From positions 1 through 61,659 of the forward strand of contig CAZYQY010000002.1 of the NCBI GenBank assembly GCA_964649795.1: a stretch of DNA of 61,659 nucleotides. Reading direction: 5' to 3'. This document shows positions 13,339-52,078 of this stretch, one piece after another. The notes under the pieces were generated by a model. It searched no databases and was not told the origin of the DNA. It saw only the letters and a program-made list of their open reading frames with translations. Made by a program: the position numbers and the translations under genes. Source of the DNA: an uncultured Candidatus Saccharibacteria bacterium (GTDB lineage: Bacteria; Patescibacteriota; Minisyncoccia; Portnoybacterales; UBA2143). Every line of letters starts with the position of its first letter. Positions within the stretch are counted from its first letter, which is position 1.

Positions 13339-13826
13339 ATTTTAAAAATTCATTCAAAAGTCAAAGAGCAAAAGACCAATGACCACACTACTATAGAAAC
13401 AGCAAACTGCCAGAATAGTAGGCGTAGGCACCAGCCAAGTAAACCGTATTGTCGAAGTAGAGCTTGTCGTCGAAAGTCTGGAAGCCGAACGAATAGAACG
13501 AGATATTTAAGAAAGAAGAAGTTGATTGAGAATAAGGTTGTTAATCAATAGGTTAATTGCTAAACTCAACACGAAAGTAGGCTACTGCACCTTGGTTCAA
13601 GGATCGAGGTCGCCGAAATCCTAAGTCTCTAAAATTGCCAGAATCATAGTAATTACGGTTGCTATGAGCGCGCAAGAGAGATTTTAGATACTACTTACTG
13701 GTTCTTAGGGCGGGTGTCTTTTTTGGCTACCGCCAGATTAAATACAGGAAGCTTGAGTATATAGGTCACCTTAGGCGACAGTAACCCTCTGCTTCCAGTG
13801 GTAATAGACGAGAATCAGTAAAATTA

Positions 13827-13951
13827 CGGTTCCCGCTACAAGCATTCGGATAAGGTGCCGAATGTCTACCTCAACGACGACAAGCCGAAGCTCAACTGAA
13901 ACAACGCTGACAACTCGAATGACAAGTGGGGTTCCGCCTCGTGCCGTAGTC
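13827..13951 (+). repeat. DGR template repeat (TR)
   Basis: Aligns without gaps over 125 nt to the reverse complement of 15722-15846. 21 of 23 mismatches fall on TR adenines. An in-frame TGA occurs where VR has TGC. Confidence 0.85.
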
Positions 13952-13996: not shown

Positions 13997-14356
13997 TTAG
14001 TTTAGGGATCTAATCCAGCCTCCGAGCATTCGGCCGATTTCCTGAATCTTTTCTTCCAGATTTAGGTATTTTTTATTATCCAGCATCTTAAACTCTCGAG
14101 CCATTCTAAGTAAAACTTTTAAAAGGTCAAATTTGTTATTCGCTTCTAATAGTTTTGCTTTTTTCTCTTGCTTATACGAGCTAACTGCGGATAATATCAA
14201 TTCCATAAAATCAATGATATTTTCTTCGCATTTCTTGCCCAACACATATTGATCCTTTTTAGGAAAGATTTTTAAACACTCATAGAACTCCTTGTAAAGA
14301 TCAGTTGTCTTTTTGAGGATTGGCGCCTCGCTTTGAATTTGGTTTAAATTTTGCAT
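13997..14356 (-). CDS. avd: DGR accessory variability determinant (Avd-like four-helix-bundle protein)
   Basis: 119-aa helical protein. LYKEFYECLKIFPKKDQYVLGKK and a C-terminal IGRMLGGWIRSL match the Avd / 23S-IVS four-helix-bundle family. Adjacent to the DGR RT and TR. Confidence 0.75.
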   Translation of the reverse strand: MQNLNQIQSEAPILKKTTDLYKEFYECLKIFPKKDQYVLGKKCEENIIDFMELILSAVSSYKQEKKAKLLEANNKFDLLKVLLRMAREFKMLDNKKYLNLEEKIQEIGRMLGGWIRSLN

Positions 14357-14358
14357 AT

Positions 14359-15409
14359 ATGAAGATTTATAAAGACATTTTTAAGGATATAATTTCAATG
14401 GAGAATTTGCTTTTGGCTTGGGATGAATTTAAAAAGGGCAAAAGAGAGAAACAAGATGTTCAGGAATTTGAGCTTCATCTAGAGGATAATCTGTTTGCCC
14501 TCCACCAAGAATTAAAAAGCAAGAAATACAAGCATGGCGACTATGTTGGTTTTTATATCAACGACCCAAAGAGAAGGCATATCCACAAAGCAACGGTCAG
14601 AGACAGAGTCGTCCATCATGCTATTCATCTAAAACTCTATCCTATTTTTAATCCGACCTTTGTTTACACCTCCTATTCATCCCGCAAAGAAAAAGGGACC
14701 CACCGGGCAGTTATTAAACTGGATAAAATGTTAAGGGCTGTTTATCAGACCCACGGCAGATGTTCTGTCTTAAAGTGTGATATTAAGAAGTTCTTTCCAA
14801 CTATTGATCATAAAGTATTAATGAAAATTATTGCCAAGCGGATTAAAGATAAAGATGCTTTGTGGTTGATAAAAAAGATTGTCAAAAGCTTTGAGTCGGA
14901 ATTTACCACCAAGAGAGATAAAAAAAGGAACCCCAATTGGCAATTTGACTTCTCAAATTTTGGTTAATATTTATATGAATGAAATGGATCAATTTATTAA
15001 AGACCAGCTTAAAGTTAAATATTATGTCCGCTACGCTGATGATTTTATTGTTGTTCATCATGCCCAGGATTATTTGCTGAGTTTGAAAGGTCAGATCGAA
15101 TCTTTTCTCAAAAAGAATCTAAAACTATCACTTCATCCGGGCAAAGTCACTATTCGTAAATACTACCAAGGGATTGATTTCTTGGGTTATGTAATCTTGC
15201 CTAAAGCCATTGTCTTAAGAACTAAAACTAAACAGAGAATTTTTAGGAAATTGAGACAAAGAGTAAAGGAATATAAACAAGAAAAAATAGATGAGAAAAC
15301 CTTCCTGCAATCGTTTAATTCTTATCTGGGAGTATTGAGTCACGCCAAGAGCTACAAGTTTGAGCAGGAATTAAAACACAAAATGTGGGAGTGGCTTAAA
15401 GAAGATTGA
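14359..15409 (+). CDS. DGR-type reverse transcriptase, reading frame interrupted at an A7 run (14920-14926)
   Basis: Joins ORFs 14320-14967 and 14879-15409. The probable start is the ATG at 14359 (MKIYKDIF...). Motifs seen are FFPTIDH, GTPIGNLTSQ (the DGR-specific IGxxxSQ), YVRYADDFIVV (YADD) and GIDFLGY. Removing one A at 14920-14926 restores ...RDKKGTPIGNLTSQ... Confidence 0.85.
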
Positions 15410-15623: not shown

Positions 15624-15713
15624 TTTAAGTGCGCGTTTAGCGCAAAAATTTGTAGCGGTCGCCTTCGGCGAAAACAAGGAACAAGAAACCAAAAGGTCCA
15701 AAGTGTCAAGAAC

Positions 15714-16445
15714 CTAAGCCCGACTACGGCACGAGGCGGAACCCCACCTGCCATCCGAGTGGCCAGCGTCGTCGCAGTCGAGCTCCGGTCCGCCGTCGTC
15801 GAGGAAGACACTCGGCACCAAGCCCGAAAGCCTGTAGCGGGAACCGGTGCTCCAGAGATGATGATCTGATAACACATTCGTGTGAACACAAACAGCGATG
15901 TCTTCGTCGGTGATATGGCGCAGACGGTTTTGCTTTTTGATGATCTTTTCGGCGTCTTCGGGTGATTTACCGAGAGTGGCTTTCCCGGGCTCAACATCGT
16001 AGATATAATACGGATTTTTTGGGATTTCTTCTTCATTGTCGGTTATCTCGTTCGGATCAAGGTAGGTGTAGCCCATCTTGTCGTCATTGCGGACCATGGG
16101 CATAAGTCCATAGATGCCCATATAGGAACGGGGGATGACTGGCACGAACGGAATGTTTCCTTCGGGAACTTCCATTTCGGCCGCTTTGGATAAAACCTCG
16201 CTTTTTTTGTTCTGGAACGCTTCCAGAATGGCCTGTGGGCAGTTCCATGATTTCAGGGTTTCCATCTGGTTGTCAAACAGCTTGGCCAGTCCGTTCTTGC
16301 GGTCTTCAATCGTTTCGGCGTTGGCCTGTTTTTTGGCCTCGGCCACCACATCATCGATTACCTCGGCTCCCAGACCTTTGAAAAAAGCCGTTAGCTTGGC
16401 AATCAATCCTTCGCGCTGATCTTTGCACAAATCTTTCTTTGTCAT
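15714..16445 (-). CDS. DGR target (variable) protein with C-terminal VR
   Basis: 243-aa ORF, visibly GC-richer than its surroundings. It has a strong SD (aaaggagg). The last ~42 codons are the VR matching TR. Confidence 0.8.
   Translation of the reverse strand: MTKKDLCKDQREGLIAKLTAFFKGLGAEVIDDVVAEAKKQANAETIEDRKNGLAKLFDNQMETLKSWNCPQAILEAFQNKKSEVLSKAAEMEVPEGNIPFVPVIPRSYMGIYGLMPMVRNDDKMGYTYLDPNEITDNEEEIPKNPYYIYDVEPGKATLGKSPEDAEKIIKKQNRLRHITDEDIAVCVHTNVLSDHHLWSTGSRYRLSGLVPSVFLDDGGPELDCDDAGHSDGRWGSASCRSRA
15722..15846 (-). repeat. DGR variable repeat (VR) at the 3' end of the target gene
   Basis: See the TR feature. Encodes GSRYRLSGLVPSVFLDDGGPELDCDDAGHSDGRWGSASCRS. The 3'-terminal 26 nt are identical to TR (IMH-like). 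Confidence 0.85.
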
Positions 16446-47783: not shown

Positions 47784-48248
47784 ATGCCTACATTAACTAC
47801 TAATCCCAGAGCTAAATTTGATTATTCTATTTTAGAAACCTTTGAAGCGGGTATGGTTTTGTCTGGCCAGGAAGTTAAGTCAACTAAAAACAATAAAATG
47901 AGCTTAAAGGGTTCTTATATAACGATTAAAAATGAGGAGGTGTGGTTAATTAATGCATTTGTACCTCCTTATCAGACCAAAAATACGCCTGAGGATTATA
48001 AACCTGACAAATCTAGAAAACTGCTTTTGCATAAAAAAGAAATCAATAGATTAATCGGTAAAACCAAACAAAAAGGCTTGACTTTAGTGCCTTTGCGCGT
48101 TTATACTAAACACAACCGTATAAAATTAGAGTTTGGCTTAGGCCAAGGTAAAAAGAAAATAGACAAACGAGAAAAAATTAAAAAAAGAGAAGTTAAGCGC
48201 AGCATTGACAGAGCACTACGAGACAAAGGGGATGATAGGCATCGATAA
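47784..48248 (+). CDS. smpB: SsrA-binding protein SmpB
   Basis: NPRAKFDY...LSGQEVKS...SLKGSY signature with a basic C-terminal tail. Confidence 0.93.
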   Translation: MPTLTTNPRAKFDYSILETFEAGMVLSGQEVKSTKNNKMSLKGSYITIKNEEVWLINAFVPPYQTKNTPEDYKPDKSRKLLLHKKEINRLIGKTKQKGLTLVPLRVYTKHNRIKLEFGLGQGKKKIDKREKIKKREVKRSIDRALRDKGDDRHR

Positions 48249-48568
48249 GAGTTCTTTTCTTAATAAGCAAGTCGAGCTTAAAAACTCGTTAAACTTTTAA
48301 CCCTAATAAGTGCTAACAAAAATTTAGCCTTTGCTGTTGCTTAAGCGCATCAGCCATCCAAACTTTTGACTCCTGATAAAAAGCTTTGGGTGTTATCTTA
48401 TCAGGATAGACATTTAGATTGTTTCGACTAATTGTTAAATCTTAGAAGCAGGAATTAAAAAAATTTGCTTGGTTTTTAGTTTTTAATTCTCATTACAAAT
48501 CAAGCTAAACTTGTAGAATTATTAAGAAATGCCTTTTACACGCGGGTTCGATTCCCGCCGTCTCCACC
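48228..48568 (+). ncRNA. ssrA: tmRNA (SsrA)
   Basis: 5' GGGGATG pairs with 3' CGTCTCC, giving a G3:U pair. There is a T-arm-like GGGTTCGATTCCCGCC. The tag reading frame at 48312-48344 (gct aac aaa aat tta gcc ttt gct gtt gct taa) encodes ANKNLAFAVA. Confidence 0.85.
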
Positions 48569-48623
48569 CCGTAAAAACAACTTAAAACCTATTTACAAAA
48601 GATATTACAATAAAAAAATAGAA

Positions 48624-50678: not shown

Positions 50679-50706
50679 TTGACTTTCTTTGACAATTTGA
50701 TATAAT
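50679..50706 (+). promoter_or_regulatory. Sigma70-type promoter of the second target-like gene
   Basis: TTGACT-16 nt-TATAAT. It is followed by a leader of about 160 nt. Confidence 0.5.
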
Positions 50707-50872
50707 GATAGCGTTATGATTAGTTCTTTTCAAATGCGGTTTAGAATACTATGAGGCAAGTATTTTGGATATCAAATTATTTGATTTCTGAAATACTTGT
50801 CTCATAAAGAGATAAGTCGTTAGTCCGAGCGATTCGGATAGAAAATCACAGAAAGGATAAAGGAGGTATGCC

Positions 50873-51646
50873 ATGGAAAGTATGGTGAGCCACACCCTGT
50901 CGGTGCACAACGAACACGAATTTTTACTGAAAATGGAGAAGGCGGGTCTTTCTGAAGAACTTGCCCAGAAGGTCATTGACTCAAATGGCAACGAACTCGC
51001 CCAAAAAGTAGTCAGATTCATTCAGAACGGCGGTTTTGAGCCGACAACCAGCCAGAAGCGCACTCGTGAAATCATAGGTCAGAATTTCTTCGGTGTCGAA
51101 GAGGCCATCCAGCATTTCGGAGTTAACCCAACCCGTCAGCAAACACTTGCTTTGTCGGAGGTTCCTTTTTCTGAAGAAGTACTTCAGAAGGCAAGGGATA
51201 CTCACGCTCTGATGGCGGTCTTCCCGCTTTCGATTCTCGAGATTCGCGGCAAGGTTGAGCGAAAGCTTTTTTACGGCTATGAAGATGCTTGGTATAACAA
51301 GCAAGCATTTGCCAAAGAGCGTGGTGAGACAAGCTGGCAACTGGTTCGCAAAACACCAGTGAACAATTCAACCTCGAAAAACTGGGAAGAGCAACAAGCT
51401 CTTATTTCGAAAGAGGACGAAGTCCCGACTCCCCAAGTGATGGTCTATACCATTATTGGTCATTACCTGGCTACTGGCGAGCGTCTGTTCGAGCACATTT
51501 ATGTCCGTACGTCATTTGTAGTTTCGGACGGCTTCCGCGTCTACGTCGGCAGCTTCGATTCGGATGGTCTCTCTGTCGGCAGCTACTGGGATGACCGCCG
51601 TGAGGGCGGCTTGGGCGTCTCGTCCGCTCGGAAGTTCCCCGCATAA
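50873..51646 (+). CDS. DGR-target-like protein paralog (no cognate TR found in this window)
   Basis: GC-rich 257-aa ORF with an aaaggagg SD. The C-terminus GFRVYVGSFDSDGLSVGSYWDDRREGGLGVSSARK parallels the VR segment of the 15714-16445 protein, including a similar ending (GSASCRS vs GVSSARK). Confidence 0.65.
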   Translation: MESMVSHTLSVHNEHEFLLKMEKAGLSEELAQKVIDSNGNELAQKVVRFIQNGGFEPTTSQKRTREIIGQNFFGVEEAIQHFGVNPTRQQTLALSEVPFSEEVLQKARDTHALMAVFPLSILEIRGKVERKLFYGYEDAWYNKQAFAKERGETSWQLVRKTPVNNSTSKNWEEQQALISKEDEVPTPQVMVYTIIGHYLATGERLFEHIYVRTSFVVSDGFRVYVGSFDSDGLSVGSYWDDRREGGLGVSSARKFPA

Positions 51647-51834
51647 ATCACGAAGTGATTTTGCGGGATAAATTGAATCCTGAACCCTTAAAATTTTGTT
51701 CCTTTTGATAACTTGAGCCTTCGGCGATATTTTCGTTGAGGGCTCTTTTCTTTCCCTAAGATTTCCTATAAAATATAAATGTCTGCTAATGAAGGTTGGA
51801 CCACGGTTTAACCTCGCGGACGTCTCATCTTTGA

Positions 51835-52032
51835 GATATCGCCAGAGTATCGTTGTTTACGGATAACGATAGCGTGCGACAAAAGATGGAGATTGAACTT
51901 CTTAAGGGAATAATCAGCCAAGAAATTCTTGAGCAATCGTTTCAGTCCTACATGGGCGTTCTTTCTCATGCTGATACTTATAAATTGGGACAGGAACTGA
52001 AAAATCAATTCTGGTTTTGGCTTAACAAATAG
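51835..52032 (+). pseudogene. Fossil C-terminal fragment of a second DGR-type reverse transcriptase
   Basis: The open frame translates to ...VRQKMEIELLKGIISQEILEQSFQSYMGVLSHADTYKLGQELKNQFWFWLNK*. This is collinear with the RT C-terminus LRQRVKEYKQEKIDEKTFLQSFNSYLGVLSHAKSYKFEQELKHKMWEWLKED*. No finger or palm motifs lie upstream. Confidence 0.6.
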
Positions 52033-52078
52033 AAATACCCCCTAACGGATTAAATATATTATCTAAAGAATGGACAAT

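What the first reader, a model, noticed from the sequence alone, without database searches (positions are those of the whole stretch)
50679..52032. Second, apparently orphaned DGR locus: target paralog followed by a fossil RT C-terminus
About 35 kb from the DGR lies a second GC-rich gene (50873-51646). Its C-terminal segment (DGFRVYVGSFDSDGLSVGSYWDDRREGGLGVSSARK) parallels the VR segment of the first target (GLVPSVFLDDGGPELDCDDAGHSDGRWGSASCRS).

Some 190-385 nt downstream, an open frame (51835-52032) encodes ...EQSFQSYMGVLSHADTYKLGQELKNQFWFWLNK*. This is collinear with the last ~50 residues of the RT at 14359-15409 (...KTFLQSFNSYLGVLSHAKSYKFEQELKHKMWEWLKED*).

Upstream of that frame I see no palm or finger motifs, no avd and no TR. 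By eye, TR 13827-13951 does not match this gene.

This looks like a DGR that lost its template and enzyme, leaving a frozen variable protein. Both targets are followed by a small GC hairpin sharing gccttcggcga (15660-15670 and 51720-51730), in the position where DGR VRs often carry a hairpin.
Basis: partly seen in the sequence, partly recalled or inferred. Interest (0 to 1): 0.65.

Follow-up and report, generated by a model that had tools for sequence, protein, structure and literature searches.

The report
Decayed DGR leaving a frozen target
A bacterial "targeted hypermutation" cassette (a diversity-generating retroelement) has lost its template, helper gene and most of its reverse transcriptase in one ~1.6-kb deletion. 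Its once-variable target gene remains intact but can no longer be diversified locally, an ordinary kind of decay that turns out to be common in this gene family.

Summary
Gene 50873-51646 (T2) belongs to a family of over 1000 Patescibacteria proteins. In intact relatives these are followed by spacer, TR, bAvd (opposite strand) and RT.

In the window, homology to every intact relative stops at 51903. It resumes at 51904 inside the last 42 codons of the RT. About 1.58 kb is missing: the 3' part of the spacer, TR, avd and RT codons 1 to ~307.

VR2 (51517-51637) still carries the adenine-mutagenesis signature against the family TR consensus. No cognate TR exists in the window. The junction is identical in four other assemblies.

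Two claims are weaker:
- T2 is not demonstrably a paralog of the first target (a DUF5701, C-type-lectin-like protein).
- The shared 11-mer lies in opposite orientation relative to the two genes. At locus 2 it sits inside a terminator-like hairpin.

Such decay is frequent: only 13 of 35 informative family loci keep a full cassette.

By-products:
- A covarying structured RNA of about 250 nt, with no Rfam match, precedes TR in this DGR clade. It is complete in DGR1, and only its 5' domain survives in the fossil.
- DGR1's RT carries a reproducible A7 frameshift.

The parts
50679..50706 (+). Sigma-70-like promoter TTGACT-16-(TG)TATAAT at the left edge of the cassette. Homology to other cassettes begins here.
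   Evidence: It matches 11 of 12 consensus positions. Homology to L135 starts at 50679. The promoter is conserved in the family alignment. Four Logan contigs break exactly at 50680.
50750..50806 (+). Long hairpin in the 5' UTR of the target gene, conserved in the family.
   Evidence: The fold gives dG -30.5 kcal/mol and z -8.7. An inverted repeat of 28-nt arms is reported. In the whole 5'-UTR alignment, 11 of 42 predicted pairs show two-sided changes.
50873..51646 (+). T2: an intact 257-aa DGR target gene of a large Patescibacteria family with no Pfam assignment. It has an AGGAGG ribosome-binding site upstream.
   Evidence: ORF. Over 1000 homologs at 66-83% identity. The C-terminal ~35 aa are hypervariable on a fixed scaffold. 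Homologs sit next to TR, bAvd and RT. No family hit in Pfam or NCBIfam.
51517..51637 (+). VR2: the former variable region, now without a template.
   Evidence: It aligns without gaps to the TRs of 19 relatives. It differs at 16 of 27 conserved-A columns against 3 of 68 conserved non-A columns, with Fisher p between 1e-5 and 1e-9 for 18 of the 19 TRs taken singly; the exception, L039 (p 0.07), is an A-poor copy that is probably a second VR. No partner exists in the window. It is identical in 8 other assemblies.
51715..51745 (+). Terminator-like hairpin (13-bp stem, then UUUUCUUUCC) containing the 11-mer GCCTTCGGCGA at 51717-51727.
   Evidence: (dG -22.2 kcal/mol, z -4.9). The same hairpin follows both VR-bearing genes of L001.
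51777..51886 (+). Surviving 5' domain (helices 1-5) of the structured RNA that precedes TR in intact relatives. Remnant sequence continues to 51903.
   Evidence: Covariance model R2, built without the window, scores 121 bits, E 3e-26, full length.
51903..51904 (+). Deletion junction (plus or minus 1 nt, no useful microhomology). About 1.58 kb is missing: the 3' domain of the leader RNA, TR, bAvd and RT codons 1 to ~307.
   Evidence: Left homology ends at 51903 in 10 of 10 relatives. Right homology begins at 51904 or 51905. The junction is identical in L003, L004, L006 and L007.
51904..52032 (+). RT 3' remnant: the last 42 codons plus the stop.
   Evidence: Pairwise BLASTP against RT1: 55% identity over 38 aa, E 2e-13; tblastn against the whole window: 57% over 37 aa, E 2e-9. 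85.5% nucleotide identity, ungapped, to the 3' end of the L135 RT over 131 nt. PHROG RT hit at E 2.3e-4.
13573..13826 (+). Context: the complete TR-leader structured RNA of DGR1, abutting TR1 (13827-13951).
   Evidence: R2 hits 13573-13682 at E 1.2e-8. R1 hits 13690-13826 at 81.6 bits, E 1.3e-17.
14359..15409 (+). Context: the RT of DGR1, split by a +1 frameshift at an A7 run (14920-14926). It is the only other RT in the window.
   Evidence: Two overlapping ORFs, each with a half of RVT_1. The A7 run is identical in L138, L143 and L146.

Best explanation
Locus 50679-52035 is what remains of a Patescibacteria-type DGR cassette whose original order was promoter, target gene (VR at its 3' end), terminator hairpin, ~250-nt structured leader RNA, TR, bAvd (opposite strand), RT.

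A single internal deletion of about 1.58 kb joined position 51903 to codon ~308 of the RT. Position 51903 lies in the leader RNA, at the 5' strand of its long-range helix 6. The deletion removed the 3' half of the leader, the TR, avd and the catalytic part of the RT.

Mutagenic retrohoming needs a TR transcript and an RT-Avd complex. The VR can therefore no longer be rewritten from this locus.

The target gene keeps its promoter, ribosome-binding site, open frame and terminator. It persists as a fixed allele whose last diversified state is frozen.

What is shown: the deletion, its junction, the family context, the adenine signature in VR2, and the absence of a TR in 61.7 kb. What is inferred: that the gene is still expressed and useful, and that no cognate TR exists elsewhere in the genome.
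For: Family context: T2 homologs are followed by TR, bAvd and RT in L001, in 13 of 35 informative metagenome loci, and in six GTDB genome loci, L116, L127, L128, L129, L130 and L135.

Junction: homology to 10 relatives ends at 51903 and restarts at 51904 or 51905 within the RT 3' end. The missing stretch is 1575-1584 bp.

RT remnant.

VR2 signature: 16 of 27 conserved-A columns differ, against 3 of 68 conserved non-A columns.

No TR: the A-tolerant scan of the whole window finds no partner. The model of the leader's 3' domain, which abuts TR, finds only DGR1.

Not an assembly artefact: four other assemblies span the junction at 100% identity, and eight cover the gene and VR at 100%.

No near-identical VR variants: the T2 cluster at 90% identity has one member, and the next relative is 83% identical with differences spread over the whole length.

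No helper in cis: the only other RT in the window is frameshifted in every assembly seen, and its TR matches only VR1.
Against: Only 61.7 kb of the genome was examined, roughly a tenth for this kind of organism. The source genome was not among the GTDB representatives matched by the VR 3' 18-mer. A second DGR with a matching TR elsewhere therefore remains possible.

DGRs of this family can serve two targets: L001 has a second VR-bearing gene.

Identical consensus sequences across assemblies do not exclude low-frequency VR variants. DGR1's VR, which still has a TR, is equally invariant across assemblies. That test alone therefore does not discriminate.

Expression of T2 was not measured.
Confidence: 0.88

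Rival explanations
1. T2 is a remote target. It is still diversified in trans by an intact DGR elsewhere in the genome whose TR matches VR2. The adjacent deletion merely removed a redundant copy of the machinery.
For: Remote and multiple targets are a recognised feature of DGRs (Roux et al. 2021, PMC8144416). L001 shows one TR serving two genes. About 90% of the genome is unseen.
Against: No cognate TR or second TR-leader RNA lies in the window. The only nearby RT is frameshifted, and its TR and the 3' end of its VR are unrelated to VR2. No VR variants of this gene exist in the 15-billion-protein collection. The locus is 100% identical in 8 assemblies.
Confidence: 0.08
2. The junction is an assembly artefact: a collapse or chimera between a target gene and the 3' end of an RT gene.
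For: Several short-read contigs break inside 51800-51875 and at 50680. That shows the region is hard to assemble in these communities.
Against: Four independent assemblies span the junction with identical sequence. They come from three JGI samples and one SRA run, built with different assemblers. The flanking host genes are contiguous on both sides: holA upstream, and DUF3048 and the 5'-3' exonuclease downstream.
Confidence: 0.01
3. The fused frame (51853 or 51886 to 52032; called as a 48-aa gene in other assemblies) is a new functional small protein built from the RT thumb tail.
For: The frame is open and was called as a gene in three assemblies.
Against: Its N-terminal part is a translation of a covarying RNA structure. 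None of the surveyed orphan or partial loci keeps an RT 3' remnant at the expected position; one short, weak match lies ~4.6 kb downstream in L068. No ribosome-binding site is evident by eye in the sequence (not tested with a tool).
Confidence: 0.02

Closest known systems
Patescibacteria (CPR) DGRs, 'DGR clade 2' of Roux et al. 2021 (PMC8144416)
   Same: The host group and the RT and bAvd types are the same. Both are chromosomal cassettes with a C-terminal VR diversified at TR adenines. The intact relatives of this locus (L001, L135 and others) and DGR1 in the same window are ordinary members.
   Different: This locus lacks TR, avd and about 88% of the RT, so it is a relic rather than a working member. 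The clade assignment is inferred from host and architecture. No RT phylogeny was made.
Bordetella phage BPP-1 DGR (mtd-avd-TR-brt), the prototype
   Same: The logic is the same: TR RNA is copied by RT-Avd, adenines are randomised, and the cDNA replaces the VR at the 3' end of the target. [quoted passage not shown] The structured leader found here would be the counterpart of that upstream segment.
   Different: Here avd lies on the opposite strand between TR and RT. The RNA upstream of TR is therefore a dedicated non-coding, covarying ~250-nt element rather than the 3' end of avd. The hairpin after the VR starts about 78 nt after the VR and looks like an intrinsic terminator. In BPP-1, by contrast, the GC hairpin or cruciform lies close to the VR (Guo et al. 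2011, PMC3240598; the position is recalled from my own knowledge of that paper, which was not read here).
Remote or orphan DGR targets (VRs not adjacent to an RT)
   Same: A VR-bearing gene without adjacent machinery.
   Different: Remote targets are normally inferred to be serviced by a TR elsewhere. Here the remains of the gene's own cassette are still attached, which shows that the machinery was lost in place.
DUF5701 (PF18959) DGR targets, such as target 1 of this window
   Same: Similar size at about 250 aa, no evident signal peptide by eye (not tested with a tool), helical N-terminal part, and a C-terminal VR ending in a G-x-S-S/A-x-R motif. The secondary-structure order is the same in the C-terminal half. 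Two DUF5701 members share T2's N-terminal ~55-aa module.
   Different: There is no significant sequence similarity over the VR-bearing domain. T2 has no Pfam hit. T1 models confidently as C-type-lectin-like, whereas the T2 VR domain is not confidently modelled.

Membership tests
Functional DGR cassette | DGR-type reverse transcriptase with finger and palm motifs | tested here: not met
   Only the last 42 codons remain (51904-52032). tblastn with two full RTs finds nothing else at the locus.
Functional DGR cassette | A template repeat matching the VR except at adenines | tested here: not met
   No partner of 51400-51700 exists in the window. TR1 is unrelated. The rest of the genome is not available.
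Functional DGR cassette | Accessory variability determinant (Avd) | tested here: not met
   The only Avd match in the window is DGR1's.
DGR target (variable protein), by descent | Homologs lie next to TR, Avd and RT, with the VR at their 3' end | tested here: met
   L001 and 13 of 35 informative metagenome loci, plus six GTDB loci.
DGR target (variable protein), by descent | Differences between VR and TR concentrated at TR adenines | tested here: met
   Tested against the TRs of relatives, since its own TR is gone: 16 of 27 conserved-A columns differ against 3 of 68 conserved non-A columns.
DGR target (variable protein), by descent | C-type-lectin-like fold carrying the VR | tested here: inconclusive
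   The AF2 model has mean pLDDT 65.6, below 50 over residues 207-257. Foldseek against the PDB finds nothing. Only the order of secondary-structure elements resembles T1.
DUF5701 (PF18959) | A match to the Pfam model at or above its gathering score | tested here: not met
   There are no Pfam hits for T2 or for 25 family members, even at E up to 10. T1 does match, at 43.3 bits against a cut-off of 27.4.
Paralog of target 1 | Significant sequence or profile similarity over the VR-bearing domain | tested here: not met
   BLASTP E of 1 or worse. hhalign probability 3-6%. HMM cross-search E of 0.27 or worse, except for the N-terminal module in 2 of 112 sequences.
Known RNA family (Rfam 15) for the spacer element | A match to any of 4227 covariance models | tested here: not met
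   Nothing reaches gathering score in the window. Only chance-level hits on the terminator appear at E up to 1 in L001 6700-7700. None of the RT-1 to RT-19 motifs of Weinberg et al. 2017 (PMC5737381) matched.

The most novel reading that the evidence does not exclude
The ~250-nt covarying RNA that directly precedes TR is an undescribed, obligatory part of the template RNA of Patescibacteria DGRs. It has 10 helices and is found with two unrelated target families and two cassette layouts. It would be the scaffold that recruits RT-Avd, replacing the avd-derived upstream segment of the Bordetella system.

Repeated loss of the cassette, with the target retained, would then mean that these cytoplasmic variable proteins are routinely 'fixed' after a period of diversification. 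In this survey 22 of 35 informative loci lack a full cassette, and the breakpoints differ from locus to locus.
Probability: 0.45. Interest if true: 0.6.

Novelty: new member of a known kind. Interest (0 to 1): 0.4.

Why it matters
This locus is a clean natural example of how a DGR dies. One deletion removes template, helper and enzyme while the diversified gene stays intact.

The family survey suggests this is a common fate rather than an accident. That bears on two points:
- How long targeted hypermutation is actually useful to a lineage.
- How many 'hypothetical' Patescibacteria genes are frozen former variable proteins.

DGR surveys that start from RT genes miss such loci altogether.

The comparison also exposed a conserved structured RNA next to TR. 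It could guide experiments on how these DGRs, which have avd on the opposite strand between TR and RT, assemble their template RNA.

Tried and rejected
- A-tolerant search for a TR in the window returned only A-rich noise.
- Scan of GTDB genomes with the A-free 3' 18-mer of VR2 gave 47 loci, mostly chance hits in GC-rich genomes. Eight were Patescibacteria DGR loci, and none was the source genome. The test for a remote TR could therefore not be completed.
- Homology of T1 and T2 was tested by BLASTP, two hhalign runs and reciprocal HMM searches. Only an N-terminal ~55-aa module shared with two DUF5701 members is significant.
- The T2 structure model was too weak in the VR domain. Foldseek against the PDB, a PDB sequence search, Pfam, NCBIfam and PHROGs gave no assignment.
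- Rfam gave nothing for the spacer RNA.
- No useful microhomology was found at the junction, 1 nt at most.
- The shared 11-mer was rejected as evidence of a common DGR hairpin, because it is inverted relative to the two genes. The DGR1 copy is only a 5-bp stem, and its 71-nt surrounding stretch folds no better than shuffles (z -0.84).
- Contig breaks at 51800-51875 were considered as a sign of co-existing undeleted strains. This was rejected because the break points differ between assemblies.
- Three literature searches found no description of decayed Patescibacteria DGRs or of DUF5701 as a DGR target. A fourth search and one follow-up reading found no description of a TR-leader RNA. One 2026 preprint could not be opened.

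Full report
**Setting.** The window is AT-rich (about 27% GC) and carries Patescibacteria-type housekeeping genes. Around the locus these are rplT, holA, a DUF3048 gene and a 5'-3' exonuclease. The finding concerns 50679-52032.

**The first DGR is real.**
- TR1 (13827-13951) and VR1 (about 15722-15846 on the minus strand, at the 3' end of gene 15714-16445) differ at 23 positions, 21 of them TR adenines.
- bAvd (13997-14356, minus strand) scores E 1.8e-23. Both halves of the RT match RVT_1. The target matches DUF5701.
- The RT is split by one extra A in an A7 run (14920-14926). The same A7 run is present in three other assemblies.

**The observation at locus 2.**
- Gene 50873-51646 (T2) is an intact 257-codon ORF at 46-51% GC in flanks of 21-30% GC.
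- The frame 51835-52032 is open. Its C-terminal part matches the RT1 tail in pairwise BLASTP at 55% identity over 38 aa, E 2e-13, and by tblastn against the whole window at 57% over 37 aa, E 2e-9. It also matches a PHROG reverse-transcriptase family, E 2.3e-4.
- No other RT, Avd or TR1-like sequence lies at the locus.
- An adenine-tolerant scan finds no partner for the T2 3' region anywhere in the window.
- The 11-mer GCCTTCGGCGA occurs exactly twice, at 15661-15671 and 51717-51727, against 0 expected.

**What T2 is.**
- It has more than 1000 relatives of 66-83% identity and about 255 aa. Where named, nearly all are from Patescibacteria.
- The relatives are nearly invariant except for a C-terminal stretch of about 35 residues. 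That stretch varies on a fixed scaffold, SDGxRVxVGxFDSxGLxVxxxWDDxRxDxLGVSSARKF.
- In a 304-kb contig (L001) the homolog is followed by a 350-nt spacer and a TR whose variable codons are AAC or AAT. Then come bAvd on the opposite strand and a 349-aa RT. This TR-avd(opposite strand)-RT core is the same as in DGR1.
- The same arrangement is found in many metagenome loci and in six GTDB genome loci, L116, L127, L128, L129, L130 and L135.
- T2 is therefore a genuine DGR target family, although it has no Pfam, NCBIfam or PDB assignment.

**The deletion.**
- Compared with ten relatives, homology downstream of T2 always ends at window position 51903. With those relatives that align to the end, it restarts at 51904 or 51905 inside the 3' end of the RT gene.
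- The missing stretch is 1576 bp in L036, 1578 bp in L028, 1575 bp in L075 and about 1584 bp in L135.
- L135 is the closest intact cassette. It is 97% identical over the spacer, 82% over 50679-51904 and 85.5% over the RT tail.
- In L135 the missing stretch contains the 3' part of the spacer, the TR, avd and RT codons 1 to ~307.
- There is at most 1 nt of microhomology at the junction.
- Only 51904-52032 (42 codons plus the stop) is RT-derived. The open frame upstream of that is an accidental reading of non-coding sequence.
- Four other assemblies span the junction and are 100% identical. Eight cover T2 and its VR at 100%. An assembly artefact is therefore very unlikely.

**VR2 is a former DGR product, now without a template.**
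- VR2 (51517-51637) aligns without gaps to the TRs of 19 relatives. It differs at 16 of 27 columns where the TRs conserve A, against 3 of 68 columns where they conserve another base.
- For 18 of the 19 TRs taken singly, Fisher p lies between 1e-5 and 1e-9. The exception is L039 (p 0.07), an A-poor copy that is probably a second VR rather than a TR.
- The T2 cluster at 90% identity holds a single sequence. The next relative differs throughout its length, not just in the VR.
- The model of the RNA domain that abuts TR finds only DGR1 in the window.

**Limits.**
- Only about a tenth of the genome is visible.
- The GTDB scan with the A-free end of the VR did not recover the source genome.
- Consensus assemblies cannot show rare variants. 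VR1, which still has a TR, is equally invariant, even in a strain whose N-terminus has diverged by 5%.

**How common decay is.** Of 35 family loci with at least 2.6 kb downstream:

| State of the locus | Loci |
|---|---|
| Full cassette | 13 |
| Partial cassette | 6 |
| Spacer remnant only | 8 |
| Nothing recognisable within 5 kb | 8 |

- These are counts of loci, not of independent lineages. L014, L015 and L016 look like the same sequence recovered from three samples, and L081 is the same contig as L001.
- Partial examples: L015 has TR and avd but no RT; L030 has only avd residues 85-115; L025 has avd 1-70 and RT 1-50.
- The spacer remnants have different lengths: 63, 68, 72, 110, 123, 132, 211 and 294 nt.
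- A GTDB Veblenbacteria locus (L103) has a frameshifted target and fragments of avd and RT.
- None of the other orphan or partial loci keeps an RT 3' remnant at the expected position; one short, weak match lies ~4.6 kb downstream in L068. The breakpoints therefore differ and the losses look independent.
- I found no paper describing this. Conceptually it is ordinary gene decay.

**The 'paralog' claim.**
- T1 models confidently, with pLDDT 92.3. Its C-terminal domain resembles the Bdellovibrio Bd2740 C-terminal domain (probability 0.99) and C-type lectins. This is the canonical DGR target fold.
- The T2 model is poor in the VR domain and finds nothing in the PDB.
- No sequence or profile method links the two VR domains.
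- Only an N-terminal module of about 55 aa is shared with two DUF5701 proteins, at E about 1e-11.
- The order of secondary-structure elements is similar in the two C-terminal halves, so a common fold is plausible but unproven.

**The hairpin.**
- At locus 2 the 11-mer lies in a 13-bp stem followed by a U-tract (dG -22.2 kcal/mol, z -4.9). This is an intrinsic-terminator-like element.
- Against L001 the stem keeps pairing through G-U changes, by eye, which suggests an RNA-level role.
- It follows both VR genes of L001.
- At DGR1 the 11-mer is a 5-bp stem, and its 71-nt surrounding stretch folds no better than shuffles (z -0.84). It lies in the opposite orientation relative to its gene.
- I do not regard the shared word as evidence of a common element.
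- A role of the locus-2 hairpin in target recognition, as in BPP-1, is possible but untested.

**By-product: a structured RNA in front of TR.**
- The spacer is more conserved than the coding sequence. An alignment of 30 loci gives 70 pairs in 10 helices, and 37 pairs show compensatory changes.
- 96.7% of cells are paired, against 44-48% when the partners are slid. The covariation score is 0.376 against about 0.09. No shuffle out of 500 reaches the observed values.
- Two covariance models were built without the window. The 3' domain hits 13690-13826, abutting TR1, at 81.6 bits and E 1.3e-17. The 5' domain hits 51777-51886 at E 3e-26 and 13573-13682 at E 1.2e-8.
- DGR1 therefore has the complete element, although its target family and cassette layout differ. 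The fossil keeps only helices 1-5. The deletion starts at the 5' strand of the long-range helix 6.
- No Rfam family matches.
- By analogy with Bordetella, where the template needs flanking RNA segments, I infer that it is the upstream part of the template RNA. This is untested.

**Verdict.** It is well supported, of a known kind, and moderately interesting mainly for two reasons: such decay is frequent in this family, and the comparison revealed the leader RNA.

Noticed in passing
window 13573-13826 and 51777-51886; L001 6826-7116: A conserved, covarying structured RNA of about 250 nt (10 helices) lies directly upstream of TR in this Patescibacteria DGR clade and has no Rfam match. It is complete in DGR1 and truncated in the fossil locus.
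   Followed up: yes
window 14920-14926: DGR1's reverse transcriptase is split by a +1 frameshift in an A7 run. An A6 run would restore '...KRDKKGTPIGNLTSQ...'. The A7 run is identical in three other assemblies, so DGR1 is either inactive or depends on slippage. VR1 is invariant across nine assemblies.
   Followed up: partly
window 50750-50806 (and 50709-50715 with 50867-50873): The T2 5' UTR holds a hairpin of about 26 bp (z -8.7) that is conserved with compensatory changes in the family. The consensus fold also pairs a leader segment with the start-codon region. This may be a regulatory leader.
   Followed up: partly
window 50679-52035: The whole cassette is a GC-rich island (46-51% against about 27%). 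Its nucleotide sequence is 70-97% conserved across loci labelled as different Patescibacteria lineages, and the spacer is 97% identical to L135 while the adjacent gene is only 74% identical at protein level. Four Logan contigs break exactly at its left edge (50680). This suggests horizontal spread and mosaic recombination of the cassette.
   Followed up: partly
L001 8861-9742: The intact relative has a second target downstream of the RT. It is 293 aa, 35% identical to T2, and carries the same VR and the same 66-nt 3' flank with the hairpin.
   Followed up: partly
L015, L030, L025/L041, L058, L103: Other cassettes of the family are caught at different stages of decay: RT gone, only an avd tail left, a truncated avd and RT, or a frameshifted target in a Veblenbacteria genome.
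   Followed up: partly
P0224, P0229 (DUF5701 members) against T2 residues 1-58: An N-terminal module of about 55 aa (LSVxxEHELL...AG...SKxNxLAxKV) is shared between the T2 family and two DUF5701 proteins at E about 1e-11. This suggests domain shuffling between two DGR target families.
   Followed up: partly
window 15714-16445 (T1): DUF5701 models with pLDDT 92. Its C-terminal domain is C-type-lectin-like; the top PDB match is the Bdellovibrio Bd2740 C-terminal domain. This gives a fold assignment to a Pfam 'domain of unknown function'.
   Followed up: yes
P0231 against T1: A strain variant of T1 differs at about 12 N-terminal residues but has an identical VR. This is unexpected if DGR1 were actively diversifying.
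   Followed up: no
L046/L047 4373-4713: Two loci carry extra GC-rich hairpins inserted into loops of the leader RNA (after helix 3 and in the helix-5 loop). This is typical of tolerated expansion sites in structured RNAs.
   Followed up: no
window 48228-48569: A tmRNA gene (140.8 bits) lies about 2 kb upstream of the locus. It is ordinary.
   Followed up: no
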